The notes under the pieces are model-generated. The model searched no databases and was not told the DNA's origin. It saw nothing but the letters and a program-made list of their open reading frames with translations. From Patescibacteria group bacterium (lineage in GTDB: Bacteria > Patescibacteriota > Doudnabacteria > UBA920), in contig JAMDAY010000030.1 in NCBI GenBank assembly GCA_023484515.1, positions 1,320 through 65,319 on the forward strand: DNA of 64,000 bases, in the 5' to 3' direction. This document shows positions 7,997 to 25,417 of this stretch, one piece after another (position 1 is the first letter of the stretch; every line of letters starts with the position of its first letter). Made by a program: the position numbers and the translations under genes.

Positions 7997-8042
7997 ACTA
8001 AAATATAAGCTTGTAAATTTTGAAAAACGCTCCTGAAGGAGC

Positions 8043-8807: not shown

Positions 8808-9353
8808 TTACTGCAAGAGTATTTCCGCAGTATTGACTTGGCTGTTGCAGTTGACGAGTAGGTGGATCGGTAGGTTTTTTTGGTTCAGCGCAACCAAGAC
8901 GTAATTGTAAGCGGCCACCGAATACGAATGTCCGGCAACAGTAATTGTTTGTGCTGCGTTGGAACGGTTATCCAGCATGATTGTGACAAGGTTAGCAATA
9001 GCCATTTGGCTCGGAATAGCCTGACAGCTTGAGTTGAATTGTATGCGGGAACTTGCGTACTTAACTACCGTGTCGCCATAACTGAGGGGCTTGGGCGGGG
9101 CAGGTTTTGGTTTGCGGAATGGAATAAACTTGCTAGCCGGAGTAGATGTATTAATCGTATCCGCAGTAGAGGTTGCGGCTTGGGTGGGCGCAGGGATCTG
9201 GTCTTGTACGGGAACGATTGCTGTGATTTTCACTATTGGGGTTTTTTGGGTAGCCAGACGCTTAGGCCTTTGCCTTTCGTAGGTTATTGAACTAATAATA
9301 ATCATAATGACAGCCACAGTCGCCCAAATTATTGCCTTCGTGTTTTTTGTCAT
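8808..9353 (-). CDS. hypothetical membrane-anchored protein (last gene of T4SS-like operon)
   Basis: An N-terminal TM helix (AIIWATVAVIMIIISSITY) is followed by a Pro/Thr-rich linker and a C-terminal domain. The gene is co-directional and contiguous with the upstream T4SS-like genes. Confidence 0.5.
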   Translation of the reverse strand: MTKNTKAIIWATVAVIMIIISSITYERQRPKRLATQKTPIVKITAIVPVQDQIPAPTQAATSTADTINTSTPASKFIPFRKPKPAPPKPLSYGDTVVKYASSRIQFNSSCQAIPSQMAIANLVTIMLDNRSNAAQTITVAGHSYSVAAYNYVLVALNQKNLPIHLLVNCNSQVNTAEILLQ

Positions 9354-9369
9354 AAGTTCAATAAAATAT

Positions 9370-10128: not shown

Positions 10129-10142
10129 AAGGCAATAGATAA

Positions 10143-12542: not shown

Positions 12543-12984
12543 GGGAGAGGTAGTTGCCTATGAAAGCCAAAAGGAGGAGGCCTAAGGCCAAGGCAATAAA
12601 AATAATAATAAAAGTTTTCATATGGTTTTCTTCCTGGTAAACGAGTTGTTTGGCTTTAAAGCTGGCCGTGCCGCTTGCGGCATGGTGGTGGTAGATTAAG
12701 GCTTTAGGCTGGTTTTTGTAGTAGAAGAAAATAAAGAGCAGGTGACGATAAAAATTTCTGCCATGAATTTCGGCAATGCCGCAAAGCGATAAAGTGGCTA
12801 AAGCAAACATGCCCAGGCCGGTTGGCAGTTGTTTGTCCACTAGGCTAAATACTCCAAGGCCGACAAACAGCGTGGCAATAAATACCAGCACAATTTGTCT
12901 AAGGCCCAATCCCCAAAACAAGGTAACTTTGTAGCCTTCGATGGATTCAGGGATGTCGATTTTAAATGATTTATCTTCGGGCAT
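12526..12984 (-). CDS. small membrane protein, VirB3/PrgI-like candidate
   Basis: A 152-aa protein with two hydrophobic helices. It sits immediately upstream of VirB4 and overlaps it, the typical VirB3 position. Confidence 0.45.
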   Translation of the reverse strand: MPEDKSFKIDIPESIEGYKVTLFWGLGLRQIVLVFIATLFVGLGVFSLVDKQLPTGLGMFALATLSLCGIAEIHGRNFYRHLLFIFFYYKNQPKALIYHHHAASGTASFKAKQLVYQEENHMKTFIIIFIALALGLLLLAFIGNYLSHVIYQ

Positions 12985-13001
12985 AGGGGTTTTGGTTTAG
13001 G

Positions 13002-14312
13002 TTAGCTTTTTAATCTCTTTAACCGGTAATAGAGTCCGGCTCCGGACTGCGCGCCTTTCCTGATGACCGAACGGAAGCCTGCCACTTCAGAGGCATTGGC
13101 AATCTGCTGCAGCAAGTTGTTGCTATCCGCGACAATGGCCATACCAACAAGCATCAAGATTAAATTACCCAAAGAGAAGCCGCCGGAGCTTAAAAACACA
13201 AAAACTATGAGCAGGATCAGCAGGTCAAACATCAGTCCAAAGCTGGTCACAAAAAACTTGTGCCAGAAAATCATAGCCATATTCTTGGTCTCGTTAAAAA
13301 ACAACATGGGCGTGAAAATGGGAGACAAAAGGATCATGATCAGCAGCAGGAAATACCGTTTGGCGTTCCTAAACACCACAAAGCCAAACAGGACAACATA
13401 AACCAGCACAAAGATTGTCAGGCCAATTAAGGCCAGGCCAAAGCTGCCGGAAGAATTCCAGAGGCCGTCGGCAATCAAGGCTTTTAAGGCAATGGTTAAA
13501 CCATTGGCTAGCTGGGTATTAAATAAAAAGGTGGCAAAGGCTTGGGCGGTTAGGATTAAGGCTTCGGCCAAGTACCTGGCCAAAAACACCCCGGCAAACC
13601 CCAGCAATATCTTACCCACGTCTCCCACAAAATCGCTGGAGAAGTCCTGGTCCAAGGAAAAAATTATGGCTTTGAAATAGTGGGTCACCACCAGCAAGTA
13701 GACCCAGGCCAAACCGATAATCTCACTGAGCTTAAGCAGGCTGTTAAAATTGGCAATCTGCTGCAGTTTGCCTGGGGACAGGTTCGGGTCGCTATTAAAC
13801 AGTTCAGCTGGCAGGCTGAATAAAAAATTAAAATTAAATTTTTCCACGACTTTTCCCACCACGGTTCCCAGTCCCCGGACTACTTTTTCAATGATAATGC
13901 CTAAGACGTCATTGATAGTCTTTTTGACGCAGTCAATGGTGTCAACCACAATTAAAATACACTTGGGGTCGGTGATGTTGCTTTGGATGTCACTAATTTC
14001 ACTGCCGAGCAGATTGGTGTTATTAATGTCATTCGTGGAGGGCAGTTTGCCCGTAATGTCCTCTTTAACTCCGGCGTAGAAATTGCTCATGTAGGCTTCG
14101 TGAAAGGCAAAGACAAAGGCTCCGGAAAGGAACAACATAATAAAGCCCACAATTACGGTTTGGACGACCAGGTTGGAGCGAACGACGTCATCGTGCTTGC
14201 CAGTGTTTCTTAAGGCTCCGGCAATGGCAATGACAAAAACACCAACCACCATGCTGATGGCGATTATGGCTGGGACATAATGCGCTAAAACAGCTTTAAT
14301 CAGGTTGTCCAT
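13002..14312 (-). CDS. polytopic membrane protein, VirB6/TrbL-like candidate
   Basis: A 436-aa protein with about 8 predicted TM helices. It lies in a T4SS-like operon between the VirB8-like and VirB3-like genes. Confidence 0.5.
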   Translation of the reverse strand: MDNLIKAVLAHYVPAIIAISMVVGVFVIAIAGALRNTGKHDDVVRSNLVVQTVIVGFIMLFLSGAFVFAFHEAYMSNFYAGVKEDITGKLPSTNDINNTNLLGSEISDIQSNITDPKCILIVVDTIDCVKKTINDVLGIIIEKVVRGLGTVVGKVVEKFNFNFLFSLPAELFNSDPNLSPGKLQQIANFNSLLKLSEIIGLAWVYLLVVTHYFKAIIFSLDQDFSSDFVGDVGKILLGFAGVFLARYLAEALILTAQAFATFLFNTQLANGLTIALKALIADGLWNSSGSFGLALIGLTIFVLVYVVLFGFVVFRNAKRYFLLLIMILLSPIFTPMLFFNETKNMAMIFWHKFFVTSFGLMFDLLILLIVFVFLSSGGFSLGNLILMLVGMAIVADSNNLLQQIANASEVAGFRSVIRKGAQSGAGLYYRLKRLKS

Positions 14313-15240
14313 AATTTATTTGGGAGAGGTTGTTAATTTGTTTACAGCCTTCGTAGCCATATTTAAAATATATTTTTGGAGATTTGGCAAAACCTACGCT
14401 GATCCGGCTAAGCGTGAGCTGGCTGTCCACGCCGTTTTTTTCCAGGATTTCGTTGTCAGCCAAAAATATCCGGTTAGATTGCGAGTCCCGGAGCACCAGA
14501 AAAGAAAACAAGCCTGCGGGCTGGGTCTGGGCATTTCGGGATTTGAGTAAGTCCTTGTCTTCCAGGTTCGGGTCGCGGACGTCCAATATTTTATCCCCGA
14601 TTTGCGCTTTCCAATCCGGGCTCGTTTTTATGAATTCAGCCAGTTTAGCCATGGAAGAATAACGCCAGTCATAAAGCTCAATGCCGGTGGCTTTTTCAGT
14701 CTTGTCATCAAGGTCGCAGACCAAGCCGCCAAGTTTTACCAGAGTTGGCTGGTCGCTTAAGAAGCCCTTATCCTTGGCGTACTGGTAGCGGGCACGGGCG
14801 TGATTTTCCAAATAATTGAAGCTTTCCGGCACGACTGTAGACAAGTCACCGCCGGTTAAAGGCGTCAGGCCGCTGTTAATGAACAGAAGATCTTCGAACT
14901 TCCTGCGGACCAACTCCTGGTTCTTTCCTTCCAGCCACTGCTGCAGTTCGCCCGTAAAAGATTCTACAGTTTGGGTCTGGATTTTTTCCTTGTACGCCTG
15001 GCTTTGCCAATAGGTCTCGTCGGCAATTACCGTTTCCCGGGTCGGAGAAGGTTTTGGGTTGCTTACTTTGGGTTGGGGGGAAATGCGCCAGATTTGCAGG
15101 TAGATTGCCACTGCAAACAACAGGCTAATGTACAAAACCGCCCGCAGGTTAAAGTTGGGAACAAAAGTTTTTACCAAACCATCCAGCCTGTAAAGCCAGC
15201 TATTTCTTTTGGGTTGTTTGGTTTCTTGCTCATCGCTCAT
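14296..15240 (-). CDS. bitopic membrane protein, VirB8-like position (hypothetical)
   Basis: A single N-terminal TM helix (LRAVLYISLLFAVAIYLQIW) is followed by a roughly 250-aa periplasmic/extracellular domain. The assignment rests on operon position only. Confidence 0.4.
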   Translation of the reverse strand: MSDEQETKQPKRNSWLYRLDGLVKTFVPNFNLRAVLYISLLFAVAIYLQIWRISPQPKVSNPKPSPTRETVIADETYWQSQAYKEKIQTQTVESFTGELQQWLEGKNQELVRRKFEDLLFINSGLTPLTGGDLSTVVPESFNYLENHARARYQYAKDKGFLSDQPTLVKLGGLVCDLDDKTEKATGIELYDWRYSSMAKLAEFIKTSPDWKAQIGDKILDVRDPNLEDKDLLKSRNAQTQPAGLFSFLVLRDSQSNRIFLADNEILEKNGVDSQLTLSRISVGFAKSPKIYFKYGYEGCKQINNLSQINYGQPD

Positions 15241-15270
15241 AGGCTAATGTGGTTAATAATTATCTTGGCT

Positions 15271-15642
15271 TTAAGCATTAGACTTTATGCCAACCAGGCC
15301 TAAGACATACAGGATGAGGCCAATGATAAAGATGGCAGCAAAAGTTATGCCCACGCCCACGACCGTGGATCTCAGTCCGGCCTTGGCTTCTTGGGACTTG
15401 ATGGGATCAGAGCCTGAAGACTGCAGCTTAATGCCGTACCAGGCAACCATGATGACCGCGTAGAGGACGGCAATGCCGAAGATGACCCCGATACCGATAT
15501 TGGCAAAATCCCGAACCGGTTTCATTTTATCTGACTCCCAGACTGACATGTCTGGTTTGGGCAGTTCCTGGGCAAGCGCGATTGAGGCGGTTAAAAATAG
15601 GGCGGAGACACTGGCCCCAAGTGAAGCAATAAATTTTTTCAT
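15271..15642 (-). CDS. T4SS pilin-like protein (VirB2/TrbC-like): signal peptide plus two hydrophobic segments
   Basis: A 123-aa protein with a signal peptide (MKKFIASLGASVSALFLTASIALAQE) and two TM segments (IGIGVIFGIAVLYAVIMVAWY and VVGVGITFAAIFIIGLILYVLGLVGI). It lies in the T4SS-like operon. Confidence 0.55.
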   Translation of the reverse strand: MKKFIASLGASVSALFLTASIALAQELPKPDMSVWESDKMKPVRDFANIGIGVIFGIAVLYAVIMVAWYGIKLQSSGSDPIKSQEAKAGLRSTVVGVGITFAAIFIIGLILYVLGLVGIKSNA

Positions 15643-15727
15643 TGTTGTTACGTTAGTGTATTAATAATTGAGATACCCTAAAGATATATTCGCTCTCAGC
15701 TATCATTGGAATAGATGTAATTGTTCA

Positions 15728-16615
15728 TCATAAAAAATTAAATAACTTAATTCTTTGGGTAATTTCAGCTTTGAGCAGCCCGTCTTTACTTAACCTAACT
15801 GTGCTTTCTGTTGCATAAATTGGTTCTAAAAATTGCTTGGCTCCGGCAATTAAGTCCAAGTGGGTAGTGACAATGTTGAGTTTTAGAAGGCCAGGGCGGT
15901 TCATAAAAATATTGAGCCAAAAGGAGCGCTCCATCCCTTGGGTTTGGAACACTAACCGCAGAGTGTATTGTTCAGAGTTTTGCAAAGCAAGAAAGTCCCA
16001 GTACCTTTGGACCTTATTAAGCAAGGATTCGTTGGATTTTCGGGTGCGCTCAAATTCCGTGTAAACTTTGTACTCCGCCTGGCTGGTCTTGTAAACTACG
16101 GTGTAATCGGGGGTTAAGGCTTCCACACGTTTGTCGCTTATATAGTCTTGTGTTTGCGAACTGTCTTCGCCTTTAAAGCTAAAACTTAAATTTGCAGACT
16201 TGTTCAAGCTTTCCAAACTGGCCAGCTCCACGATTTGGGCTTCATGCTTGAACAATCCCCAGGACAGCAAAGTCTTGGCTGTCGGGTAATTTTTCAGGCG
16301 CTGCCACTCATACTGGCCACACTCAGTCAAGACTTTTAGTCCTTGTTTGGAAAGCATATAAAACAGCGAGAAGCCGCCGCCGGAAAAAACCTTAAAGCTT
16401 TCCAAAAGTTTAGCCTGCCACATTCGGCGGAGTTTGGTATACATGTACCGGCTCCGCTCTTTTTGGCTGAGGAACCTGGTAATATGGCAGCTGGAGGCCA
16501 GCCTAAACTCCAAGACTAAAGCCAAAATCTCCAACGCGGACTGGTTTATTTCCACGTTATACGGGCTTACGTTAGCCCTGGGGGTGAGTTTTACGTCAAG
16601 GGTGTTTAAATACAT
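15728..16615 (-). CDS. hypothetical protein (possible winged-helix / relaxation-accessory protein)
   Basis: A 295-aa soluble protein lying between the coupling-ATPase and pilin genes. No decisive motif was seen. Confidence 0.45.
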   Translation of the reverse strand: MYLNTLDVKLTPRANVSPYNVEINQSALEILALVLEFRLASSCHITRFLSQKERSRYMYTKLRRMWQAKLLESFKVFSGGGFSLFYMLSKQGLKVLTECGQYEWQRLKNYPTAKTLLSWGLFKHEAQIVELASLESLNKSANLSFSFKGEDSSQTQDYISDKRVEALTPDYTVVYKTSQAEYKVYTEFERTRKSNESLLNKVQRYWDFLALQNSEQYTLRLVFQTQGMERSFWLNIFMNRPGLLKLNIVTTHLDLIAGAKQFLEPIYATESTVRLSKDGLLKAEITQRIKLFNFL

Positions 16616-16632
16616 ATTTTAGTTTTGCTAAA

Positions 16633-19320
16633 TTAAAAATTTACTGCAGCCGGTGCCCGTTCTTTGTCTGGCTCAAAGGTAGTGTGCCTGCCCATGAGCT
16701 CCCGGAAAATTTGCTCCCTTTTAGCCGAGTAATAAATGCCGTTGATATTGTCCCGTTTTTGTTTTATGACTTCCAAAGGCGTGCCATAGCTTTCCATGGT
16801 TTCTTTAATGAAATATTCTTCCGTGTCCCTTAAAATGTCTTTGGGATGGGGAGTTTTTTGGATATTGATGGACATGGCGTCTTGCGGCACGCCTTGGACT
16901 AAAGTTTTGAGGTAAGCCGTGCCGGTCGGCAGGTTAATAATGTCTTCCACGGTAATCCTGCCGCCTAATATCTTTTCGGCGATTTCACTGTCTCCGACTG
17001 ACTGGGTGCGCATGAAGATTTTGGTGGCAATGTTGGACTCAATGGATTTTTGGATGCGCTCGTCCAGTTGGCCCATGAATTGGTTGGAAATGACCAAAGC
17101 GGTGTTAAACGCCCGAACTTCGGAAAACAGGGTTTCAAAGATGTCGCTGGCCACCCTTTGGAACTCGTCAATAACGAACACACACGGTTTGCGGTCTTCG
17201 CTATTCAGCCTGGCTTGGCCGAAAATTGCTTCGGCAATATGGGCGGAGAGGTATACCGAGTAGTACTTTTTCAGCTGCTCGCTGGATGAGCCAAAGTTGG
17301 CAATAAAGATCTTGCCTTGCTTGATCATGTCTTCAAACGTAATCTTGGTTTCCAGACGGTCGGCAATGTTCATGAATTCCTGGTAATCCAAAAATTTGCC
17401 GATCTTGTTGTTGGTCGTGGCCAAGTACCTGGCAAGGTCGTTATTGGAACGCTTTAAGATTGAATCCGTCCAAAAGCTTTGCAACCTTAAGGGCAGGTAC
17501 TTTAAGAGGTTCTTTATTTGGTTGGGTTCGTGCAATAGCTGGTCCAGACCCGAGAGGGACTGGGCAGGCAGCACGTAAGCCGTGGTAAACAGCTGCCTTA
17601 AGATGTTTTCCAGTTCCGGGCCCCAGGAGTTAGCTGAATCAATCTGCACGAACCGCTTCATAATGGAGATTAAAAAGCCTAAACGCTCTTCGTCGCTTTT
17701 GTCCCCGGAAAACTGTGAAAAGAAGGGAAAGCTTAAAGGCTTGTCTTGCTGTTTGGAGGGATTAAAGTAAACTACATCCGCTTTCCGTTCTTCGGGGATC
17801 ATGGTTAAAAGGTCTGTGGCAAAGTCGTTTTTGGGGTCAATAACCAGGCAGGCGGCTTTGTCCTTGCCTGTTTTTTGCAGGACGTGGCTTAGGATGGTTT
17901 TTAAAGTTTCGGATTTGCCGCTGCCAGTGCCGCCAAGAATATAGACATGCTTTTTCATGTCGTCCCAGGTCGGGATGCCAATTTTGGTGTCTTCCTGCAT
18001 GCGGAAGTTAGACTTGCCCAGCTCCACGTAGAAGCTGTCGTCGTATTCGCGCATTTGCTGGCTGGCGGGTTTCTTTTTGAACTTAACAGTCTTAACCGAA
18101 GACACGGTTTGGTCATTGGTATCAGGCAGGTGCCAGAGGGAAAATAGCTCAATGTCAGAAATCACTTGCCCGAAATTCTGGTAGCCTGAAAAAGGCCATA
18201 ACCATAATTTTCGGGTTCTTAAAACCGGCTTGGTGTCTATAATTTGCCGCAGTTGCCCCGAGGTTGCCAAATCCTCCACCTGCCTGGTAAACAGTCTTTT
18301 ATGCTTGAGCATGTTCATGTTCTTTTGGTTGACCTCTGTCAGCACCCCCTGGATGTTGGCCAGTTTTATTTCCGCGTCTTCCGGGGTTTCGGAAACCGCC
18401 CAGTAAGAAATAATGGTTTGAAACAGGGAGGCTTTCATTTTTTCTTCCATGGCAATCTTCAGCGAACTGGCCAAGTCCGAAACAGGCTCCTTTTTGTAGG
18501 AAGGGGTTTGTTTGGCCGCTTGGGCCACTTCTTGCTGCGCCCGTTCCTGGTCTTCAATCAAGTAGTGGATGATTTGGTTGAAGTAATGGGAAGAAGGGGA
18601 GATGAGGATGTTGTAGGCCATAAACCGGCCCTTGGCCAGCGCTTCCATGGTGGAGATAACGGAATCCACGGGGTCGGAGGACACGTCCTTGAAGGTTTTT
18701 ACCCGGTGGTAAAACTTGCCCTCAATGGTGGTTTGGCCGTAACTCAAATAACTTTTTTGATACTTGGCCACCTCTGCCAAAACCGCGTCTTTGTCTAGCA
18801 TGGTGATTTCGGCATTGGGATAGGCATTAAAAATAGCCTTTTCCATCCGTTGGAAAAAGGCTATGGGGATTTGGAGGCGAAAGGATATGTAAGGGTATTG
18901 GGCCCAGACCTGCATCGTGAAAAATACTTGTTTGGCCAGGGCAACTTTCCAATGGCGGTAGAGCTTCTGGAAGAAGTAAAAATACCTGGAAAATTGGTGC
19001 GGCCCTTCAATCGGATCTTGGTAGACCGAATGGAAGGCCTTGAGGATTTTTTGCTGGATCTGGAAGGCTGTGGTTTGGGAGTCTTTGGGAATGGTAATTT
19101 CAAAATACAGCGTTTTGGGGAATTCTTTGTCTAAATCCTTGTTTTTTATTTTAATTTTTTCAAAAGCGTGGAAAATATCAAGGCGGTAAAGGGAGAAAAG
19201 CTGGTAGAGGGAAAATAGAAAAATGGTGCCACAAAGGGTCAATATTCCAGTCGTCCATTCCCAAGTGGGGATTTTCCTGACTGTCTCTAACCACAGCTGG
19301 TAGCCAATGTTATTAGGCAT
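16633..19320 (-). CDS. virD4: type IV coupling protein-like ATPase (VirD4/TraG/TraD family)
   Basis: An 895-aa protein with an N-terminal TM region, Walker A (YILGGTGSGKSETL) and Walker B (PCVFVIDEFQRVASD) motifs. It is the first gene of the minus-strand T4SS-like operon. Confidence 0.65.
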   Translation of the reverse strand: MPNNIGYQLWLETVRKIPTWEWTTGILTLCGTIFLFSLYQLFSLYRLDIFHAFEKIKIKNKDLDKEFPKTLYFEITIPKDSQTTAFQIQQKILKAFHSVYQDPIEGPHQFSRYFYFFQKLYRHWKVALAKQVFFTMQVWAQYPYISFRLQIPIAFFQRMEKAIFNAYPNAEITMLDKDAVLAEVAKYQKSYLSYGQTTIEGKFYHRVKTFKDVSSDPVDSVISTMEALAKGRFMAYNILISPSSHYFNQIIHYLIEDQERAQQEVAQAAKQTPSYKKEPVSDLASSLKIAMEEKMKASLFQTIISYWAVSETPEDAEIKLANIQGVLTEVNQKNMNMLKHKRLFTRQVEDLATSGQLRQIIDTKPVLRTRKLWLWPFSGYQNFGQVISDIELFSLWHLPDTNDQTVSSVKTVKFKKKPASQQMREYDDSFYVELGKSNFRMQEDTKIGIPTWDDMKKHVYILGGTGSGKSETLKTILSHVLQKTGKDKAACLVIDPKNDFATDLLTMIPEERKADVVYFNPSKQQDKPLSFPFFSQFSGDKSDEERLGFLISIMKRFVQIDSANSWGPELENILRQLFTTAYVLPAQSLSGLDQLLHEPNQIKNLLKYLPLRLQSFWTDSILKRSNNDLARYLATTNNKIGKFLDYQEFMNIADRLETKITFEDMIKQGKIFIANFGSSSEQLKKYYSVYLSAHIAEAIFGQARLNSEDRKPCVFVIDEFQRVASDIFETLFSEVRAFNTALVISNQFMGQLDERIQKSIESNIATKIFMRTQSVGDSEIAEKILGGRITVEDIINLPTGTAYLKTLVQGVPQDAMSINIQKTPHPKDILRDTEEYFIKETMESYGTPLEVIKQKRDNINGIYYSAKREQIFRELMGRHTTFEPDKERAPAAVNF

Positions 19321-19823
19321 AGTAAGCAGAAGTTAAATATTCATGCGTACAGTTACTAGCCCTCCCCGGCGTATTTCTGTCCCGCCGCTTCGCGGCGGGC
19401 AACTCTTCCCCCCATCTTTCCTCTCCAGTCTTTGGGTTTGTTTTTAGGTTTTGGTTTTAGTTAGATATTGGAATTTAGGTATTTGGAATTAAGACAAGAT
19501 AATAGGTTAAGGTAAGAATAGATAGTATTGATGTTTAGTAGAGTTAGTATAGATACTAGTCGTTCAGTTGATTCTCTGGTGAGATAGTAGCCACTGGTAA
19601 GGGATTATTAGAACATCAATAGACACAGGTGATTTAGAAGATTTGCTAGTACAATGGGGTTGCACTATTGGTTGTACTAGCCAGCCGCTGGTTCCATAGC
19701 TCCAGCTTAATAGAAAAATCCCTGATTAGCAAGGGGTAGTTTGCCAGCTTGTCAAGAAGACAAGGCTAGCAGGCCAAGGTCAGGGGTTTTGCATAAAGTA
19801 GGTTTTAGCAGCGTTCAGGATTT

Positions 19824-19950
19824 TCCACCAAGGGAAACTTTCAGGATTTTTAGAATTTTTTTTGGTCGCTTCGCTCCCATTGCAAACGGGGGGAAATGCA
19901 GTTTGAGCCAATATTTCTGCGTGCAAATCCCACGGCGGAAGAAAACGCAA
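19824..19950. repeat. left copy of a perfect 127-bp inverted repeat flanking the recombinase/Ubl cassette
   Basis: By base-by-base comparison, 19824-19950 equals the reverse complement of 24074-24200 over 127/127 positions. Confidence 0.95.
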
Positions 19951-20051
19951 GCGCTTGCCCCACCCTCCCGTGCGCGCGCTAACGCAGCTCCCTATATATT
20001 ATTAAGAGATTAAACAAAAATTTAAAATAATAGCCATAAATGATAGCTATT

Positions 20052-20387
20052 TTAATTTACCCAAACGATCTTATTATCTCTAATCCAAAAGTGACTACCA
20101 CAAGTTCCATATCCTCTCCATAAGGACGGCATTAGCGTTACTCCTTTATTGCTTCTTGTTAGTCTCCAAACTGGATAAATGCTTTTCATCAAATTTACTT
20201 CAATTTTATCGCCACAGCCACACGGACAGGAAAATACTAACCACTTTAAGTGACCCTCATTGACTACTATATAAAAATAGGAACCAAGTCTATCTGGTAG
20301 TTCGTTCAACGATTTAATTTCCCTTGCCTGACCTAACTCACTCTTGCGTTGCCACTTTTTTACTAACTCTTTAAGCCAATTAAACAT
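20052..20387 (-). CDS. small Cys-rich protein (CPCGCG ... CGSHF; possible Zn ribbon), last gene of Ubl-E2-E1 operon
   Basis: A 111-aa protein that overlaps the JAB-E1 gene by 8 bp, indicating translational coupling. Four clustered cysteines are present. Confidence 0.5.
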   Translation of the reverse strand: MFNWLKELVKKWQRKSELGQAREIKSLNELPDRLGSYFYIVVNEGHLKWLVFSCPCGCGDKIEVNLMKSIYPVWRLTRSNKGVTLMPSLWRGYGTCGSHFWIRDNKIVWVN

Positions 20388-21762
20388 TTTGGCTCCAAAC
20401 GGTATCCAGGAAAGGGGTAGTGTCGCCCCTGCCCCAGTTATTTTTATTAGCGCAAAAACAATCGGCCTGTGGCTTTTGCGTGGTTGTTATAACTTTAGCT
20501 CTATCAAAAAAGTAAAGATATTCATTAGTCTCCCTTGCTCCCATAAAGCCGGTAAGTCTTTGTATCATTTCCGACACGGCCGCCGCGGCTACTGAAGAAG
20601 TGAAAGTAATTACAGCCGGTGCAGGCTCAGCTAATTCCGGCGCGTAACCCTCTTGTCTCCTAACAGCTGCTTCTGTCGGGTTTGTCGCTTGAAGTGATTC
20701 CGCTAACATACTTTGCGAGTTAAGTCTCTCACGACAAAGTAAACAAGCGTTTGAGGGGAAAAGGGTTGTTACTCTTCCTAAAATAGACTTTATGTTACCA
20801 TCTTGGGAATCAATTAATACCGCCATATCAATTACCGGAATGTAATAGTAGATAGAGAGTGTATTTAGCAAAGAACGTCCCCACTCATCATCTGTGCAAG
20901 CAAAAACCAAATCACAATTTCTTAATTCTTTAATTGCGACTTGGTTAGTAATGTTAGTTTCGCAAGTAATTACCTTGGTTCCAAGACCCTTGCTATGAGC
21001 TGACCGTTCCGCAATTTTAGTCTTATGGTGCCCTTCGTCCGATAAGAGAGAACCATAAACTCTATTTACGTTTGATTTTTCAAAAGCTTGCCCGTCAAAT
21101 AGTCTTAAGTCGCCAACACCCAACCTCATTAACTGCTCTGCAACTGCGGAACCCGTCCCACCAAGACCCACGATGCCAATCCTTAATTTTTGTAATAACT
21201 TTTGAATATCCTTGCCAAAAGCCCTGATTTGTCGGTCAAAAGAAATCTCGTCTAGGAGTTGCCCCTCGTTGTTATAAAAGAATTTAAACCTATTTCCAAT
21301 AACTCTAATAACTTCCATTGGGTAGCTTTGTCCATCTGCGAGCCAAACTCTACCAATTGGTTTTGTTGGAGAGGAAAAAACTAGGCTGCCGTGTAAATTA
21401 GAACGAGTAATTCTATTATAAGTAGTGCGGAATAATTTCTGCTCTTCCTTGTCATCTTGAGTAGAAAAATTAGGGGTAGTTTCTGGGTGCGAATGGACAA
21501 AAACAAAACTACGCTTTGTATTGTTAGCCTTTTTCAAAGCCCGCATAAACGAAGTTGACGGGATTGACAGACTGGTCGCCGAAGCACTTTCCAGTTCATT
21601 CGGCATTACTGGAATAACCTCTTGCACCAGTAACCTTGAATCCTCACTACCACTAGAAGGTCTGCATAAAAGATAAGCAGCCCGCTCCGTGGATGCATCT
21701 TTAAAGAGATGCTCAATGAGCTGACTGTATTCTGGTTCTAAAAAGGTTAAAGAATAACGCAT
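20380..21762 (-). CDS. JAB/JAMM deubiquitinase-like domain fused to ThiF/MoeB-type E1-like adenylyltransferase
   Basis: The N-terminus (FVFVHSHPETTPNFSTQD) matches the JAMM signature HxHx7Sx2D exactly. The middle (RIGIVGLGGTGSAVAEQLMRLGVGDLRLFDGQAFEKSNVNRV) is a ThiF Rossmann/GxGxxG fold. The C-terminus has CLLCR and CFCAN CxxC pairs, as in the E1 zinc motif. Confidence 0.8.
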   Translation of the reverse strand: MRYSLTFLEPEYSQLIEHLFKDASTERAAYLLCRPSSGSEDSRLLVQEVIPVMPNELESASATSLSIPSTSFMRALKKANNTKRSFVFVHSHPETTPNFSTQDDKEEQKLFRTTYNRITRSNLHGSLVFSSPTKPIGRVWLADGQSYPMEVIRVIGNRFKFFYNNEGQLLDEISFDRQIRAFGKDIQKLLQKLRIGIVGLGGTGSAVAEQLMRLGVGDLRLFDGQAFEKSNVNRVYGSLLSDEGHHKTKIAERSAHSKGLGTKVITCETNITNQVAIKELRNCDLVFACTDDEWGRSLLNTLSIYYYIPVIDMAVLIDSQDGNIKSILGRVTTLFPSNACLLCRERLNSQSMLAESLQATNPTEAAVRRQEGYAPELAEPAPAVITFTSSVAAAAVSEMIQRLTGFMGARETNEYLYFFDRAKVITTTQKPQADCFCANKNNWGRGDTTPFLDTVWSQNV

Positions 21763-21765
21763 TGT

Positions 21766-22167
21766 TTACTTGCTCAAATCATTTTTAATAGAGCTGATAT
21801 AAGTTCTCAAATTATCTTTTCCAGCTCTCCATTGAGATTGGGAAAGATGACGAGACCAGCGTTGCCAAGGTATCTCGTCGTAAGTTTCGTGAACATCTGC
21901 TTTGTCGGGAAGATTACCGTTTGCCAGTTTTACATCAGGATAGGTATAAAACATATCTGGGTTAGCATTGGGGTAGCCAGCTGGAACTCTGATTAGTAAC
22001 TTAACGCTCGCTAGGTTGTATTTTTGTGGCGGTAATAAAAATTCCTCAATGGTAAGATGAACCATACCGTTCACGGATATGGTTTTATATTTATACTGCT
22101 TTTCATCCAAAAATTCTATATCAAATTCCGGAAGGAGTGGTTGATTTGTCCCGTCATTTTCAGGCAT
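21766..22167 (-). CDS. E2/UBC-fold-like protein (UEV-like: YPN motif present but no cysteine in whole ORF)
   Basis: A 133-aa protein lying between the Ubl and E1 genes, as in bacterial Ubl-E2-E1-JAB operons. It carries VPAGYPNANPD, an HPN-like motif, but the ORF encodes no Cys. Confidence 0.5.
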   Translation of the reverse strand: MPENDGTNQPLLPEFDIEFLDEKQYKYKTISVNGMVHLTIEEFLLPPQKYNLASVKLLIRVPAGYPNANPDMFYTYPDVKLANGNLPDKADVHETYDEIPWQRWSRHLSQSQWRAGKDNLRTYISSIKNDLSK

Positions 22168-22417
22168 TGATGGAGCCTGGGTTTAAAGTTTTGGGACCGC
22201 TGTGAAATTGGGTACCATTTTTAAAAGTATACTCTTTGCTGTCGTTCGGAATGGGTTCGTCATCACCAGGACCAGGGATTTCCATTAATAGATTATAATC
22301 CGCTCCAATACCTGCCAGAGTATAAAGAGCTACGCCTGTAATCGGATTCTTAATTTTATATTCCTTCTTATCGATATGGATTACAACCTCATCATGTTGA
22401 TTGTCACCATGGGCCAT
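22160..22417 (-). CDS. small ubiquitin-like (beta-grasp / multiubiquitin-family-like) protein
   Basis: An 85-aa first gene of the operon, overlapping the E2-like gene. Its sequence (VVIHIDKKEYKIKNPITGVALYTLAGIGADYNLLMEIPGPGDDEPIPND) fits a beta-grasp fold. It has no C-terminal GG; it ends NPGSINA. Confidence 0.5.
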   Translation of the reverse strand: MAHGDNQHDEVVIHIDKKEYKIKNPITGVALYTLAGIGADYNLLMEIPGPGDDEPIPNDSKEYTFKNGTQFHSGPKTLNPGSINA

Positions 22418-22663
22418 ACATTCCTTTCCGTTCCCGAATATTAAAGTTTTTTCGGAAACATTGCCTTTATTTTAACACAAAATTGCCTTAATTACCAGAA
22501 GAATATATCTACCCCAGTCATTTTACTCCAAGGTTATTTTTATGACATCCAAAATATGATATAATACCTATGCGACAAACTAACCAACGAGTTTTTTAAT
22601 GGCCGTCTTTGGAAATAAATCCAACTTGTTGGGTTTGTCGCACCAAGGGCGGTCATTATTAAT

Positions 22664-24391
22664 TTGACTAGTATGGCTATTAAATATTTTTTATATGCGC
22701 GTAAATCCACGGAAGACGACGATCATCAAATAATGAGTATTGAAGCTCAGTTATTTGAATTGCGCGAATATGCCCGCAGGGAAAAACTAGAGATTATAGA
22801 AGAGTTAACTGAATCTAAAAGCGCTAAGAAGCCAGGCAGAATAAAATTTGGCGAATTGATGGATAAAATAGAAGAAAGTAACGGTGTTGGAATTCTCGCT
22901 TGGCACCCCGACAGGCTTGCCCGTAATTCCGTTGATGGCGGAAAAATAATTTATTTTGTAGATACCAAAAAGATTGTTTCCTTGCGCTTTCCCACTTTTT
23001 GGTTTGAACCAACACCGCAAGGTTTGTTTATGCTGCAAGTGGCGTTTGGTCAAAGCAAATACTATACAGATAATCTTGCCGAAAACATTAATCGGGGTTT
23101 TCGTCAAAAAATCAGGCGCGGCGAATGGCCGACAAAAGCCCCGTTCGGATACGTTAATAATTTTAAAACTCGTACTATCGAGCCTCATCCCTTTCAATCT
23201 AAAATAGTGGTCAGGGCTTTTGAGGAATTTGCCACGGGAAAATATACCTATGAAAGCCTGGCGGATTTTATGGCAGAGTTGGGAGTGGAAACCAAGAATC
23301 AAACGCCGCTTGGCAAAGCTTCTATTTGGAGAATGTTGACCAATCGGGCTTATTTAGGACTTACTAAGCATAAGGGCGAATATTTTGAGGGCAGCTTTCC
23401 GGCGATTCTTCTCCCCGCAACTTTTGATGCTGTCCAGGCGGTTCTAAAGCGAAAAGCTAGGCCGCGCAAAAGCAAGCAGGCTTTGGACTTTCCGCTGACT
23501 GGTCTTTTGACGTGTGGAGAATGCGGCTGTGCCATTACGGGTTGCAATGTAACTGGCAGGCACGGTCATAACTTTCGTTATTATCGTTGTACCAGAAAGA
23601 AAAATAAATGCTTGCAAGGCAGTTTGCAAGAGCGGCAGCTTGCGATTCAGCTCAAGAGCGAGCTTCAAAAAGTTGCCATTTGTGATAACTGGACAGACAA
23701 AATGCTCCAGCAGATTTCGGTTTGGGAGAAAGAAGAAACCAGTTCATCAAAAAGCCCTGTCCAAGACATAAAAAATAGTTTGGATAAAATTCAGGACAAG
23801 CTTAACCGGTTGGTTAGCGCTTACATTGACCAAGAAATTCCCAAAGAAATTTACTTGGTCAAAAAGGAAGAACTGCTCAAACAAAAGCTTGTCCTAAGCC
23901 AAGCTCTAAAGAATCTTGGACAGGAAGGTGGAGTGTGGATTAAACCCCTCCGGCAGTGGATTTTAGACGTAAAAGAAGCCACTTTCGTGGCTTCTTCGAG
24001 TGATCTATCTGAAGTTAAACAGACCGTTCAAAAGTTAGGATTAAACCCCCAACTTTTGGATAAGAATGTAAAATTGCGTTTTCTTCCGCCGTGGGATTTG
24101 CACGCAGAAATATTGGCTCAAACTGCATTTCCCCCCGTTTGCAATGGGAGCGAAGCGACCAAAAAAAATTCTAAAAATCCTGAAAGTTTCCCTTGGTGGA
24201 GATGGCGGGAGTTAAACCCGCGTCCAGAACGAATCAATTTTCCCATTGTTCACAAGATTAGCCAGTTCATAAGCCTTAATGACAAGAGCTGGCAAGATAT
24301 CATTAAGGTTGATTTACTAAAGCTTGAGCTGGTCAGCGCAAATCAAACCGACCGGCCGCAGCCTCTAATGAAGCCGCTAATTTATCTTTGA
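22664..24391 (+). CDS. large serine recombinase (resolvase/invertase N-domain + recombinase domain + Zn ribbon); ORF reads through the right inverted repeat
   Basis: The N-terminus (YARKSTEDDDHQIMSIEAQ) contains the catalytic Ser region of serine recombinases. The zinc ribbon is CGECGCAITGCNVTGRHGHNFRYYRC. The conserved domains end near aa 470, exactly where IR-R (24074) begins. The remaining 105 codons lie in or beyond the repeat. Confidence 0.8.
   Translation: MTSMAIKYFLYARKSTEDDDHQIMSIEAQLFELREYARREKLEIIEELTESKSAKKPGRIKFGELMDKIEESNGVGILAWHPDRLARNSVDGGKIIYFVDTKKIVSLRFPTFWFEPTPQGLFMLQVAFGQSKYYTDNLAENINRGFRQKIRRGEWPTKAPFGYVNNFKTRTIEPHPFQSKIVVRAFEEFATGKYTYESLADFMAELGVETKNQTPLGKASIWRMLTNRAYLGLTKHKGEYFEGSFPAILLPATFDAVQAVLKRKARPRKSKQALDFPLTGLLTCGECGCAITGCNVTGRHGHNFRYYRCTRKKNKCLQGSLQERQLAIQLKSELQKVAICDNWTDKMLQQISVWEKEETSSSKSPVQDIKNSLDKIQDKLNRLVSAYIDQEIPKEIYLVKKEELLKQKLVLSQALKNLGQEGGVWIKPLRQWILDVKEATFVASSSDLSEVKQTVQKLGLNPQLLDKNVKLRFLPPWDLHAEILAQTAFPPVCNGSEATKKNSKNPESFPWWRWRELNPRPERINFPIVHKISQFISLNDKSWQDIIKVDLLKLELVSANQTDRPQPLMKPLIYL
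24074..24200. repeat. right copy of the perfect 127-bp inverted repeat
   Basis: Reverse complement identical to 19824-19950. Confidence 0.95.
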
Positions 24392-25417
24392 GGCAAAAGA
24401 TAAGGCGGCGCCCTGGCTTAGAATTAAGCGAAGGCAGGCTGGAAAGCAAAGGCGTTAGCCAATGCAGTCTTTACCTTAGAAAATGCGTTAGCATTTATGA
24501 TGCCCAAAAGGATTTCCGAGGCTATTAGGCTTGCTCGTCTTGCATATGGCAAAATGTCAAAGTCCTGTCAAAATCCGTCATCCCCATCCGGATACCTATT
24601 TTAACATATTTTAAAATCACATTCAACCCCTTTTTTATTGTTAGGAAAGTATATATTTAAATATGAATTTAAATATATACTTTTTGGTTATTTAGCTGGG
24701 TTTAATTATTTTCTGTTGACATCGGGGCAGGGATGAGATATAAAATTTATATCAAACATTAAAGGAGAATGCATGAAAATCGTATGGAGGGTTGCTTCCA
24801 TAGTTTGTAAACGGATGCGGCCGTCGGGGGAGGAAAAGAAACGGCGGTGCGGGCGTATTATGCGGAATGCTGCATTGCAGCTGGCTGCGATCAGGCAAGA
24901 ACGCGAGGGCGGTTCCATGTCACTTGGGACGCTTAGGGTCCTGGAAATTATCTGGTGACAGTCCCAGACGGCAGCGTCTGGTGGAGTTATTGGGAGGTTA
25001 TATGAAGACAAGGCAGGACAGGGTTGCAATTTTGAAGCGGAAAGACGATGGGTGGCCGTTGCAAGATGTGGGTTTCCTGGTAAAACGCTTGGAAGTGCTG
25101 GTGTTGTTGGATCCTGAATTTCCCACAGCCCTGGTGCTTTTTGGCAAGTTCAACAAGGGAGCAGTCGCGACAGCGTTGAGAACCCTCAGGGTTGTCTGCG
25201 AATGCGAGGTTGCCAGCAGCCAGAATTTTCAGGAATGCGGCACGCCTTGCTTGCTTCCTGGGAGGACCAGGCAACGGTGATCAAACAAAAACGGCGGGCG
25301 CGAAGGCTTTGCGATCGCCGTTTCAATTTGTCCGGTTTTATGCCGTAGGGGATGGAAAGCCTGTATTATTAAACTTATTATGCCGTCATAAATTAAAAGC
25401 CCAGGAGGACAATATAG

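What the first reader, a model, noticed from the sequence alone, without database searches (positions are those of the whole stretch)
20052..22417. Ubiquitin-like conjugation operon: Ubl, Cys-less E2/UEV-like, JAB-E1 fusion and Cys-rich small protein
Four overlapping, translationally coupled minus-strand genes make up the operon. The first is an 85-aa beta-grasp-like protein. The second is a 133-aa UBC-fold-like protein with a YPN motif but no cysteine anywhere in the ORF. The third is a 460-aa protein whose N-terminus matches the JAMM signature HSHPETTPNFSTQD (HxHx7Sx2D), followed by a ThiF/MoeB E1 Rossmann domain (GIVGLGGTGSAV) and C-terminal CxxC pairs. The fourth is a 111-aa protein with a CPCGCG...CGSHF cysteine cluster. 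The gene set resembles the bacterial Ubl-E2-E1-JAB (Bil/Bub-type and multiubiquitin-type) anti-phage conjugation systems. It differs in having JAB fused N-terminally to E1, an E2-like protein that cannot form a thioester, a Ubl lacking a terminal Gly-Gly (it ends NPGSINA, so it may need JAB processing), and an extra Cys-rich partner. It sits as cargo on a recombinase cassette.
Basis: partly seen in the sequence, partly recalled or inferred. Interest (0 to 1): 0.85.

Follow-up and report, generated by a model that had tools for sequence, protein, structure and literature searches.

The report
Type I Bub ubiquitin-like conjugation operon
The four genes are an intact copy of an already described bacterial ubiquitin-like protein-tagging system (Type I Bub), so the operon is ordinary; the more unusual thing is that it sits inside a recombinase gene module, bounded by inverted repeats, next to the tmRNA gene of a Patescibacteria genome.

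Summary
Four co-directional minus-strand ORFs lie at exactly the stated coordinates, and every quoted motif is present. These are the defining features of Type I Bub operons (formerly 6E.1/DUF6527; Ye, Gong, Chambers and Corbett, bioRxiv 10.1101/2024.11.21.623953).

The best solved relatives are Citrobacter BubCD (E=5e-40) and BubB (E=2e-12; model TM 0.83-0.86). The Ubl models as a beta-grasp closest to Bub/Bil multi-ubiquitin proteins. The small protein is BubE (PF20137). All published catalytic residues are conserved:
- BubCD: E26, H90, H92, S100, D103, R234 and Y373
- BubB: D71, S105 and H107
- BubE: S88 and H99, plus four cysteines
- BubA: invariant G81 followed by a 4-residue tail

Separate Ubl and E2 genes are already listed in that paper's Table S1, and they occur in at least 45 of 80 related loci examined here.

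The new part is the context. The operon is cargo inside a unit bounded by 127-nt perfect inverted repeats that also holds a large serine recombinase, abutting the tmRNA 3' end. Relatives of this unit normally hold the recombinase alone, next to tRNA or tmRNA genes, and appear to be invertible.

The parts
22160..22417 (-). bubA: an 85-aa pro-Ubl with a single beta-grasp domain. The invariant Gly81 is followed by a 4-residue tail (SINA).
   Evidence: ORF. Weak Pfam Multi_ubiq hit, E=0.0056. A profile of homologues hits solved multi-ubiquitin proteins: 8u38 at 7.6e-11 and 9cd2 at 1e-6. The AF2 model has pLDDT 81 and the strand/helix order b-b-a-b-b-b. Its best PDB matches are the Citrobacter, Methylobacterium and E. 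coli multi-ubiquitin proteins, TM 0.63-0.67. LNPG is invariant in 72 homologues and is followed by non-conserved tails of 1-9 aa.
21766..22167 (-). bubB: a 133-aa E2 without cysteine. Predicted catalytic Ser105, with His107 and Asp71.
   Evidence: Pfam Prok-E2_E, 7.5e-33. Matches Citrobacter BubB (9eae_C) at E=2.1e-12 with WQRWSRH aligned. The AF2 model has pLDDT 87 and matches 9eae_C at TM 0.83/0.86, rmsd 1.7 A; canonical E2s (Cdc34, UbcH5c) follow. D71, S105 and H107 are 100% conserved in 81 sequences. No Cys in the ORF.
20380..21762 (-). bubCD: a 460-aa fusion of a JAMM/JAB peptidase (about residues 1-165) and an E1 adenylation domain. Key residues are E26, H90, H92, S100, D103; the G199xGGxG204 motif; R234; crossover-loop Tyr373; and a CxxC...CxC zinc site.
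   Evidence: Pfam ThiF 6.6e-32 and Prok-JAB 1.3e-9. Matches Citrobacter BubCD (9ea4) at E=4.9e-40 over residues 11-407, with E28, H91, H93, D104, R227 and Y370 aligned to identical residues. The listed residues are 99-100% conserved in 72 loci. The crossover-loop segment lacks Cys in 70 of 72 loci.
20052..20387 (-). bubE: a 111-aa DUF6527 protein. Predicted Ser88-His99 protease dyad and a C54/C56/C58/C96 zinc site.
   Evidence: Pfam PF20137, 1.3e-22 over the full profile. S88, H99 and C54 are invariant in 76 loci; C58 and C96 are conserved in about 76-79% and C56 in about half of the 76 loci. The family has 1438 representatives at E<=1e-3.
22418..22663 (.). Intergenic region between the divergently transcribed bubA and recombinase genes. 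It presumably holds the promoters. No regulator gene is present.
   Evidence: No ORF of 60 aa or more lies here. Promoter-like matches are no more frequent than in shuffled sequence.
22664..24391 (+). Large serine recombinase ORF. Similarity to relatives was tested only over residues 1-470 (to 24073), where it holds. From there the ORF reads through the right repeat arm and then antisense through the tmRNA gene.
   Evidence: Pfam Resolvase, Recombinase and Zn_ribbon_recom. More than 588 relatives at 57-73% identity over residues 7-470. ORF extent.
19824..19950 (.). Left arm of the 127-nt perfect inverted repeat.
   Evidence: Logan contigs L001 and L002 end exactly 30 nt inside the arm.
24074..24200 (.). 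Right arm of the inverted repeat. It encodes recombinase residues 471-512, and its outer 7 nt are the last 7 nt of the tmRNA (UCCACCA).
19780..19823 (-). Conserved "box" just outside the left arm. It would encode the conserved recombinase C-terminus (KILNAAKTYFMQNP followed by a stop) if the segment between the arms were inverted.
24194..24585 (-). tmRNA (ssrA) gene, full length. The cassette abuts its 3' end.
   Evidence: ARAGORN. Rfam RF00023, 119.9 bits, model positions 1-374.

Best explanation
Window 20052-22417 is a complete Type I Bub (bacterial ubiquitination-like, formerly 6E.1/DUF6527) operon, bubA-bubB-bubCD-bubE, in the sub-form where the Ubl and the E2 are separate genes.

Proposed mechanism, inferred by homology to the characterised Citrobacter system:
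1. The JAMM peptidase domain of BubCD removes the 4-residue tail (SINA) of pro-BubA and exposes Gly81.
2. The E1 domain adenylates Gly81, with R234 and the Rossmann motif in the ATP site.
3. The Ubl passes to Tyr373 of the cysteine-free crossover loop as an oxyester.
4. It is handed to Ser105 of BubB, activated by His107 and Asp71, as a second oxyester.
5. It is then ligated to lysines of target proteins.
6. BubE, a Ser88-His99 protease with a C4 zinc site, removes conjugates and so restrains the pathway.

The biological role is probably stress or anti-phage defence. This has not been demonstrated for any Bub operon.

Here the operon is passenger DNA inside the integrase module of an ICE-like island inserted at the 3' end of the tmRNA gene of a Patescibacteria genome. 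The module is bounded by inverted repeats.

Shown here: gene content, folds, family membership, conservation of every published catalytic residue, and genomic context. Inferred: every chemical step, the targets and the physiological role.
For: Family assignment:
- Pfam gives Prok-E2_E, ThiF with Prok-JAB, DUF6527/BubE, and a weak Multi_ubiq hit.
- The closest solved structures are Citrobacter BubCD (E=4.9e-40) and Citrobacter BubB (E=2.1e-12).
- The BubB model matches 9eae_C at TM 0.83-0.86, rmsd 1.7 A.
- The BubA model is a beta-grasp closest to the Bub/Bil multi-ubiquitin structures. Its homologue profile hits 8u38 and 9cd2.

Catalytic residues published are conserved in the window and in 72-81 related loci:
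- BubCD: E26, H90, H92, D103, R234, Y373
- BubB: D71, S105, H107
- BubE: S88, H99, C54 (C56, C58 and C96, present in the window, are conserved in only about half to 79% of the 76 loci)

Processing of BubA: the invariant LNPG is followed by non-conserved tails of 1-9 aa in 72 stand-alone BubA proteins. In a fused homologue (L006) the same Gly precedes the E2 part.

Layout: all 80 related GTDB loci carry BubCD next to BubB, and 76 also carry BubE. Table S1 of the Bub paper lists the same four-gene layout with separate Ubl and E2 genes.

Context.
Against: - No biochemistry exists for this operon or for any split-type or Patescibacteria Bub operon.
- Identity to the characterised Citrobacter proteins is only moderate (30% for BubB over the structural alignment).
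- The CapH/CapP or CapW regulators found with 39% of Bub operons are absent here.
- The authors of the Bub paper could not show phage protection for any Bub operon, so the physiological role remains conjecture.
- PADLOC 2.0.0 has no model that recognises the system as a whole.
Confidence: 0.88

Rival explanations
1. It is a sulfur-carrier or cofactor-biosynthesis module of the ThiS/ThiF, MoaD/MoeB or CysO/Mec+ type. The Ubl would be thiocarboxylated rather than conjugated to proteins.
For: The E1 domain belongs to the ThiF/MoeB superfamily and keeps the CxxC...CxC zinc site. JAB peptidases also occur in CysO-type sulfur-carrier systems (own knowledge).
Against: All NCBIfam ThiF/MoeB/MoeZ/UbaA hits score 24-61 bits against cut-offs of 150-650. 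PDB MoeB and ThiF match at 1e-8 to 1e-6, against 5e-40 for BubCD. No thiamine, molybdopterin or cysteine biosynthesis genes are adjacent. An E2 and BubE are present and invariably linked. There is no rhodanese domain and no catalytic Cys in the crossover loop.
Confidence: 0.02
2. It is a thioester-based system of the Bil (BilABCD) or type II CBASS (Cap2/Cap3) kind, as the reader partly suggested.
For: The general parts list is shared: Ubl, E2, E1 and JAB. The E1 domain gives partial PADLOC hits to CBASS E1-E2 models.
Against: The PADLOC hits cover only the adenylation domain (residues about 175-400). There is no CD-NTase or effector gene nearby. The E2 has no cysteine. The E1 has a single adenylation domain without an inserted Cys domain, and the JAB is fused to it. 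Bil requires a separate JAB, a tandem IAD-AAD-CYS E1 and a Cys E2.
Confidence: 0.02
3. The operon is a decaying, non-functional passenger. The Cys-less E2 would be an inert UEV-like protein, and the split Ubl/E2 would come from a frameshift in a formerly fused gene.
For: It lies in a mobile context in a reduced CPR genome. The text of the Bub paper describes Type I operons as Ubl-E2 fusions.
Against: All four ORFs are intact, and every catalytic residue is conserved. The same sequence appears in two further assemblies. In 45 of 80 related loci BubA and BubB are split, with different junction types: 8-nt overlap, 4-nt overlap, a short gap, or an in-frame stop. In the BubB homologue search, 29 of the 30 listed proteins, the window's own included, are stand-alone. 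Table S1 lists more than 30 such operons.
Confidence: 0.05
4. The link between the Bub operon and the recombinase/tmRNA locus is an assembly artefact. The 127-nt repeat equals a common SPAdes k-mer size, so it could mark a chimeric join.
For: The repeat is exactly 127 nt and 100% identical.
Against: Two Logan (k=31) contigs from two runs reproduce the whole interior at 100% identity and break exactly 30 nt into the arms: L001 at both arms, L002 at the left arm only. About 55 other loci, from many metagenomes and assemblers, show the same architecture with arms of 115-131 nt next to tRNA or tmRNA genes.
Confidence: 0.03

Closest known systems
Type I Bub operon of Citrobacter sp. RHBSTW-00271 (BubAB, BubCD, BubE; PDB 9ea4, 9ea5, 9eae, 9eav; Ye et al., bioRxiv 10.1101/2024.11.21.623953)
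   Same: It has a JAB-E1 fusion with the same JAMM and adenylation residues and the crossover-loop Tyr. Its E2 carries the Ser-x-His and Asp residues and no catalytic Cys. It has a DUF6527 protease with the Ser/His dyad and a C4 site. Its Ubl ends in a conserved Gly and needs cleavage. The gene order is the same.
   Different: Here the Ubl has one beta-grasp domain (three in Citrobacter) and is a separate gene with a 4-aa tail rather than an E2 fusion. BubCD here keeps a CxxC...CxC zinc site; the CxxC half does not align to cysteines in the Citrobacter protein. No CapH/CapP is present. The host is a Patescibacteria MAG.
Type I Bub operons with separate Ubl and E2 genes (for example Verrucomicrobium sp. 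3C, Hyphomicrobium denitrificans and Bradyrhizobium spp. in Table S1 of Ye et al.)
   Same: The four-gene layout is identical: Ubl, E2, DUB+E1 fusion, DUF6527.
   Different: The host phylum and the mobile context differ. None of these operons has been studied biochemically.
Type II Bub operons (BubA, BubBD, BubE), including those listed for Candidatus Yanofskybacteria (CPR)
   Same: They share the oxyester chemistry, the BubE protease and a multiubiquitin-family Ubl. They also occur in CPR genomes.
   Different: In Type II the E2 is fused to the E1 and there is no JAB domain. Here the JAB is fused to the E1 and the E2 is free.
Bil (BilABCD) and type II CBASS Cap2/Cap3 systems
   Same: They have the same E1/E2/JAB logic and a bacterial origin. 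Bil also has a multi-ubiquitin-type Ubl (8u38 is the best profile hit).
   Different: They use catalytic cysteines and thioesters, a separate JAB, and a different E1 architecture. They have no DUF6527 protein.
For the context only: the invertible hin segment of Salmonella, and SSV1-type integrases whose gene is partitioned on integration into a tRNA gene (both from own knowledge)
   Same: A recombinase gene lies inside a segment bounded by inverted repeats (Hin). The integrase coding end is changed by its position at a tRNA gene (SSV1).
   Different: Here the enzyme is a large serine recombinase, the repeats are 115-131 nt and near-perfect, and one arm supplies the last 4-9 nt of the tRNA or tmRNA. 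No published description was found.

Membership tests
Type I Bub (6E.1 / DUF6527) operon | Ubl of the multiubiquitin beta-grasp family with a conserved C-terminal Gly exposed by cleavage | tested here: met
   AF2 beta-grasp model, pLDDT 81. Foldseek top hits are Citrobacter, Methylobacterium and E. coli multi-ubiquitin proteins. Profile hits to 8u38 and 9cd2. G81 is invariant in 72 homologues and is followed by variable tails. Cleavage itself was not tested.
Type I Bub (6E.1 / DUF6527) operon | E2 of family Prok-E2_E with an invariant Ser, plus His and Asp, in place of the catalytic Cys | tested here: met
   Pfam 7.5e-33. WSRH aligned to Citrobacter S333/H335. D71, S105 and H107 are 100% conserved. 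No Cys in the ORF. Model TM 0.83-0.86 to 9eae_C.
Type I Bub (6E.1 / DUF6527) operon | JAB/JAMM peptidase fused N-terminally to a single-domain E1 whose crossover loop lacks Cys and has an invariant Tyr | tested here: met
   Prok-JAB plus ThiF in one 460-aa ORF. 9ea4 matches at E=4.9e-40. E26, H90, H92, S100, D103, R234 and Y373 are conserved. 70 of 72 crossover loops lack Cys.
Type I Bub (6E.1 / DUF6527) operon | DUF6527 (BubE) gene in the operon, with a Ser-His dyad and a C4 zinc cluster | tested here: met
   PF20137 1.3e-22. S88 and H99 are invariant in 76 loci. C54, C56, C58 and C96 are present.
Type I Bub (6E.1 / DUF6527) operon | Ubl encoded as a fusion to the E2 (BubAB), as the paper's text states | tested here: not met
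   The genes are separate and overlap by 8 nt. This feature is not truly defining. Table S1 of the same paper lists more than 30 Type I operons with separate Ubl and E2, and at least 45 of 80 related loci are split.
Type I Bub (6E.1 / DUF6527) operon | ATP-dependent Ubl conjugation through Tyr and Ser oxyester intermediates; BubE deconjugation | not testable with these tools
   Known only for the Citrobacter and E. coli systems.
Type I Bub (6E.1 / DUF6527) operon | Association with CapH+CapP or CapW regulators (seen in 39% of operons, so not obligatory) | tested here: not met
   No HTH or M78 genes flank the operon in the window. They are present in related loci L005, L006 and L007.
Bil (BilABCD) | Separate JAB, an E2 with catalytic Cys, and an E1 with tandem adenylation domains plus a Cys domain | tested here: not met
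   The E2 has no Cys, the JAB is fused to the E1, and the E1 has a single ThiF domain.
Type II CBASS (Cap2/Cap3) | E2-E1 fusion acting on a CD-NTase, with an effector gene in the operon | tested here: not met
   Only the adenylation domain matches PADLOC E1-E2 models. No CD-NTase or effector gene is present.
Sulfur-carrier E1 systems (ThiF/MoeB/CysO-Mec) | E1 reaching the family-specific score, with cognate biosynthetic genes adjacent | tested here: not met
   All NCBIfam hits are far below their cut-offs. The neighbours are a recombinase, T4SS genes and the tmRNA.

The most novel reading that the evidence does not exclude
The Bub operon has been captured inside a previously undescribed kind of integrase module.

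The module is a large serine recombinase gene bounded by 115-131-nt near-perfect inverted repeats, at the end of genomic islands or ICEs nearest the tRNA or tmRNA gene. The hosts are inferred to be Patescibacteria; this was not checked for the related contigs. One repeat arm supplies the last 4-9 nt of the RNA gene.

Inverting the module would switch the recombinase between two forms. One is full length and ends in a conserved C-terminus (..ILNFARTYFEQN). The other is fused to antisense tRNA sequence.

In this window the invertible segment would carry the whole Bub operon with it.
Probability: 0.4. Interest if true: 0.6.

Novelty: new member of a known kind. Interest (0 to 1): 0.3.

Why it matters
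For the operon itself: it adds a Patescibacteria (CPR) example of Type I Bub. It also shows from sequence data that stand-alone BubA proteins are made as pro-proteins with short, non-conserved tails after an invariant LNPG. That fits a processing role for the JAB domain in the split form of the operon. This is incremental.

It also shows that current defence-system models (PADLOC 2.0.0) and public gene calls miss parts of the system. BubE was left uncalled in four related loci.

For the context: if the recombinase unit bounded by inverted repeats at tRNA and tmRNA genes is a true inversion switch, two things would be new. It would be a serine integrase family that targets tRNA/tmRNA 3' ends; to my knowledge serine integrases rarely do so. 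It would also be a new way of toggling an integrase by exchanging its C-terminal coding end. Both are directly testable with read-level data.

Tried and rejected
- **PADLOC.** It gave only partial CBASS E1-E2 hits on the adenylation domain. The 2023 library has no Bub models, so this says nothing against Bub.
- **NCBIfam.** It gave only sub-threshold ThiF/MoeB-type hits, so the biosynthetic reading was rejected.
- **Single-sequence PDB search with BubA.** It returned only noise (casein kinase, E about 0.5). A 6-sequence profile was needed.
- **Single-sequence homologue search with BubA.** It found just 2 proteins. The profile search found 693.
- **Frameshift or pseudogene explanation for the BubA/BubB split.** Rejected from the junction diversity and the census and from Table S1.
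- **The 127-nt repeat as a SPAdes k=127 artefact.** Rejected.
- **The recombinase unit as a simple transposon with terminal inverted repeats.** Weakened for two reasons. About 40 nt outside the left arm are conserved and encode the recombinase C-terminus on the other strand. The orientation relative to the tRNA is strongly biased, about 57 to 5, rather than random.
- **Exact 35-mer of the repeat in JGI metagenome contigs.** No match.
- **Literature searches for a description of the recombinase unit.** Nothing found.
- **Promoter and terminator scans around the operon.** Matches were no more frequent than in shuffled sequence.


Full report
**1. The observation**

One search lists four minus-strand ORFs at exactly the reported coordinates:
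- 22160..22417, 85 aa
- 21766..22167, 133 aa
- 20380..21762, 460 aa
- 20052..20387, 111 aa

The first/second and third/fourth genes overlap by 8 nt. The second and third are 3 nt apart. The two small upstream proteins contain no cysteine. The 2.4-kb block has a slightly lower G+C content (0.38-0.41) than its flanks (0.43-0.48).

**2. What the genes are**

Pfam assigns the proteins as follows:

| ORF | Pfam hit | E-value |
|---|---|---|
| 133 aa | Prok-E2_E | 7.5e-33 |
| 460 aa | ThiF and Prok-JAB | 6.6e-32 and 1.3e-9 |
| 111 aa | PF20137 (DUF6527; labelled BubE in the precomputed annotation) | 1.3e-22 |
| 85 aa | Multi_ubiq, weak | 0.0056 |

Against the PDB, the 460-aa protein matches Citrobacter BubCD (9ea4, E=4.9e-40). 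Ubiquitin E1, MoeB and ThiF follow only at 1e-10 to 1e-6. The 133-aa protein matches Citrobacter BubB (9eae, E=2.1e-12), with the WQRWSRH segment aligned.

The Ubl alone found nothing significant in the PDB. A profile built from six homologues hit the solved multi-ubiquitin proteins of Methylobacterium (8u38, 7.6e-11) and E. coli ZDHYS365 (9cd2, 1e-6).

Two AlphaFold models were made:
- **Ubl.** 72-sequence alignment, pLDDT 81. The order of secondary-structure elements is that of a beta-grasp. Its best PDB matches are the Citrobacter, Methylobacterium and E. coli multi-ubiquitin structures (TM 0.63-0.67). DIX, UBX, ISG15, SUMO and ubiquitin follow.
- **E2.** pLDDT 87, pTM 0.80. It superposes on Citrobacter BubB at TM 0.83-0.86 and rmsd 1.7 A. 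Cdc34, UbcH5c, UBE2H and the Tsg101 UEV domain follow.

The two small proteins have the predicted folds, and the E1 does not cluster with biosynthetic E1s. NCBIfam scores are far below every cut-off, and no biosynthetic genes are adjacent.

**3. Comparison with what is known**

The gene set is the Type I Bub operon (bacterial ubiquitination-like; earlier "6E.1" or "DUF6527" operons) described by Ye, Gong, Chambers and Corbett (bioRxiv 10.1101/2024.11.21.623953). That work shows the following for the Citrobacter system:
- The JAB domain of BubCD cleaves the Ubl precursor after a conserved Gly.
- The E1 has no cysteine in its crossover loop and uses an invariant Tyr (Y370).
- The E2 has no catalytic Cys and uses an invariant Ser (S333), with His335 and Asp299.
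- The DUF6527 protein BubE is a Ser92/His102 protease with a C4 zinc site that removes conjugates.

I checked each residue in the window and across 72-81 related loci taken from GTDB species representatives:
- **BubCD:** E26, H90, H92, S100, D103, R234 and Y373 are 99-100% conserved. The crossover-loop segment has no Cys in 70 of 72 loci.
- **BubB:** D71, S105 and H107 are 100% conserved.
- **BubE:** S88, H99 and C54 are 100% conserved. C56, C58 and C96 are present in the window.

The BubE family is large. It has 1438 cluster representatives at E<=1e-3 among 1.84 billion proteins.

**4. The one apparent difference: split Ubl and E2 genes**

[quoted passage not shown] Here the two are separate genes.

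This is not a frameshift or a sequencing error:
- The same sequence occurs in two Logan assemblies.
- In the BubB homologue search, 29 of the 30 listed proteins (the window's own among them) are stand-alone proteins of 123-133 aa.
- The profile search for the Ubl found 693 proteins. Nearly all of the best 120 are 79-108 aa.
- Among the 80 best GTDB loci, 45 are split, 20 are fused and 15 have a Ubl too diverged for my profile.
- The junctions differ between loci: 8-nt overlap, 4-nt overlap, a short gap, or an in-frame stop.

It is also not new. Table S1 of the same paper lists more than 30 Type I Bub operons with separate Ubl and E2 gene identifiers. One of them, Verrucomicrobium sp. 3C, is locus L018 here. 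The table also lists Type II Bub operons in CPR bacteria (Candidatus Yanofskybacteria).

One modest addition comes from this work. All 72 stand-alone BubA homologues I aligned have an invariant LNPG followed by a non-conserved tail of 1-9 residues; the window has SINA. In the fused homologue of L006 the same Gly is followed directly by the E2 part. So the split-form Ubl is still a pro-protein. This explains why the JAB domain is retained.

**5. How it most likely works**

All steps are inferred by homology:
1. BubC trims SINA from pro-BubA.
2. BubD adenylates Gly81.
3. Tyr373 takes the Ubl as an oxyester.
4. BubB Ser105 receives it.
5. BubB transfers it to target lysines.
6. BubE reverses the modification.

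The physiological role is probably defence or stress response. The evidence is the mobile context here, the CapH/CapP-type regulators next to relatives L005, L006 and L007, and the regulator association reported in the paper. The authors state that they have not found a Bub operon that protects against phage. The role therefore stays open.

**6. Context: "cargo on a recombinase cassette"**

The window comes from an NCBI MAG labelled Patescibacteria group bacterium.

Genes around the operon:
- **Right:** a large serine recombinase gene transcribed divergently (Resolvase, Recombinase and Zn_ribbon_recom domains), then a full-length tmRNA gene at 24194-24585 on the minus strand, then housekeeping genes (SmpB, ArgRS and a class I tRNA synthetase, PF00133).
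- **Left:** conjugation-type genes at about 8.8-19.3 kb, namely a T4 coupling protein, Replic_Relax, a T4SS pilin, PrgI, a VirB4-like ATPase and an M23 peptidase.

A perfect 127-nt inverted repeat (19824-19950 and 24074-24200) encloses exactly the Bub operon and the recombinase gene. The outer 7 nt of the right arm are the last 7 nt of the tmRNA.

The repeat is not an assembly artefact. Logan contig L001 equals window 19921-24103, and L002 equals 19921-22884. L001 therefore breaks 30 nt (k-1) inside both arms, and L002 breaks 30 nt inside the left arm.

**7. The recombinase unit is a widespread family**

The recombinase has more than 588 close relatives (57-73% identity) in JGI metagenome contigs. 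In about 57 of the 80 loci fetched I found the following:
- A tRNA gene (Ala, Glu, Ser, Arg, Pro, Met, Lys, Val, Ile, Leu or Tyr) or a tmRNA gene lies convergent, 115-130 nt after recombinase residue 470.
- Those 115-130 nt recur, inverted and 83-100% identical (most at 92% or more), about 50-75 nt upstream of the recombinase start.
- The arm tip overlaps the last 4-9 nt of the RNA gene.

The standard unit is therefore 1.68-1.71 kb and holds only the recombinase. Cargo between the left arm and the recombinase is rare: 2713 nt (the Bub operon) in the window, 1611 nt in L110 and 574 nt in L116. The ORFs in L110 and L116 have no Pfam hit.

To the left of the unit other loci carry type III restriction-modification genes (L140, L160), a T4 coupling protein (L111) or an HATPase_c_3 protein (L139). 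This fits a role for the recombinase as the integrase of islands or ICEs.

About 40 nt outside the left arm are conserved between loci. Read on the opposite strand they encode a conserved peptide and a stop. If the segment between the arms were inverted, the recombinase ORF would end 13-19 codons after the arm with ..ILNFARTYFEQN-like sequences in 41 of 46 loci, and within 10-28 codons in 44 of 46. The window would give ..KILNAAKTYFMQNP.

In the orientation usually seen, the ORF runs instead into antisense tRNA or tmRNA, with a non-conserved tail of 1-79 codons.

A few loci show the other state:
- L094, L108, L121 and L161 end with the conserved peptide.
- L130 has tRNA-Ser followed by an arm and then the recombinase start.

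Both orientations therefore exist. The simplest reading is an invertible integrase module. I could not decide among three possibilities: inversion is catalysed by the recombinase, inversion occurs by homologous recombination, or the two states reflect something else. I found no published description. This is a lead, not a result.

A second Patescibacteria Bub locus (L010) also has a distantly related serine recombinase gene (33% identity) divergent from bubA, but it has no long inverted repeat.

**8. Verdict**

The operon is a genuine, intact Type I Bub system and a new member of a known kind. I score the finding 0.3. The residual interest comes from the pro-Ubl tails, the CPR host and, mainly, the unusual recombinase module that carries the operon.

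Noticed in passing
window 19780-24391; loci L089-L168: The large serine recombinase belongs to a family with more than 588 metagenomic relatives. In these the gene is flanked by 115-131-nt near-perfect inverted repeats and abuts the 3' end of a tRNA or tmRNA gene. The arm tip supplies the last 4-9 nt of the RNA. About 40 nt outside the left arm encode, on the other strand, a conserved recombinase C-terminus. Both orientations of the enclosed segment occur (about 57 loci against 5), which suggests an inversion switch. No description was found in the literature.
   Followed up: partly
window 5261-7996: A diversity-generating retroelement. It has bAvd (6104-6493), a reverse transcriptase (6917-7996), a template repeat at 6576-6722 and a variable repeat at 5261-5407. 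The variable repeat lies at the 3' end of a 1426-aa ORF (1099-5379) that has no Pfam hit. All 16 mismatches between the two repeats are at adenines of the template repeat.
   Followed up: yes
window 8236-19320: An ICE-like block of minus-strand conjugation genes: a T4 coupling protein (16633-19320), Replic_Relax (15728-16615), a T4SS pilin (15271-15642), PrgI (12526-12984), a VirB4-like ATPase (10143-12542) and an M23 peptidase (9370-10128). RadC (8236-8718) lies on the plus strand. The far boundary of the island was not located.
   Followed up: partly
L003 7724-8107; L005 7766-8128; L006 4860-5189; L007 about 7649-8215: In four related public contigs the BubE gene is present as an ORF overlapping the end of bubCD but was not called by the gene caller. 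Censuses based on called genes will therefore undercount complete Bub operons.
   Followed up: yes
window 20380-21762 (BubCD residues C340, C343, C435, C437): The CxxC...CxC cysteines, a ThiF/MoeB-type structural zinc site, are 93-100% conserved in 72 related BubCD proteins. In the HMMER alignment, however, the first pair does not align to cysteines in the crystallised Citrobacter BubCD.
   Followed up: partly
L010 2523-3560: A second Patescibacteria MAG with a split Type I Bub operon also has a serine recombinase gene (33% identical to the window's) divergent upstream of bubA. It has no long inverted repeat and no tRNA within the 8.4 kb held.
   Followed up: partly
Ye et al. bioRxiv 10.1101/2024.11.21.623953, text versus Table S1: [quoted passage not shown] The paper's own Table S1 lists more than 30 Type I operons with separate Ubl and E2 genes. 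In my sample of 80 loci the split form is at least as common as the fused form.
   Followed up: yes
proteins P0188 (3349 aa) and P0193 (1712 aa): Two very long proteins match the 111-aa BubE query in 12 and 15 separate stretches. They could be repetitive Cys-rich proteins or arrays of DUF6527-like modules. They were not examined.
   Followed up: no
window 24201-24391: In the orientation present in the window, the recombinase ORF has no stop codon until 24391. Its last 63 codons are therefore antisense to the tmRNA gene.
   Followed up: partly
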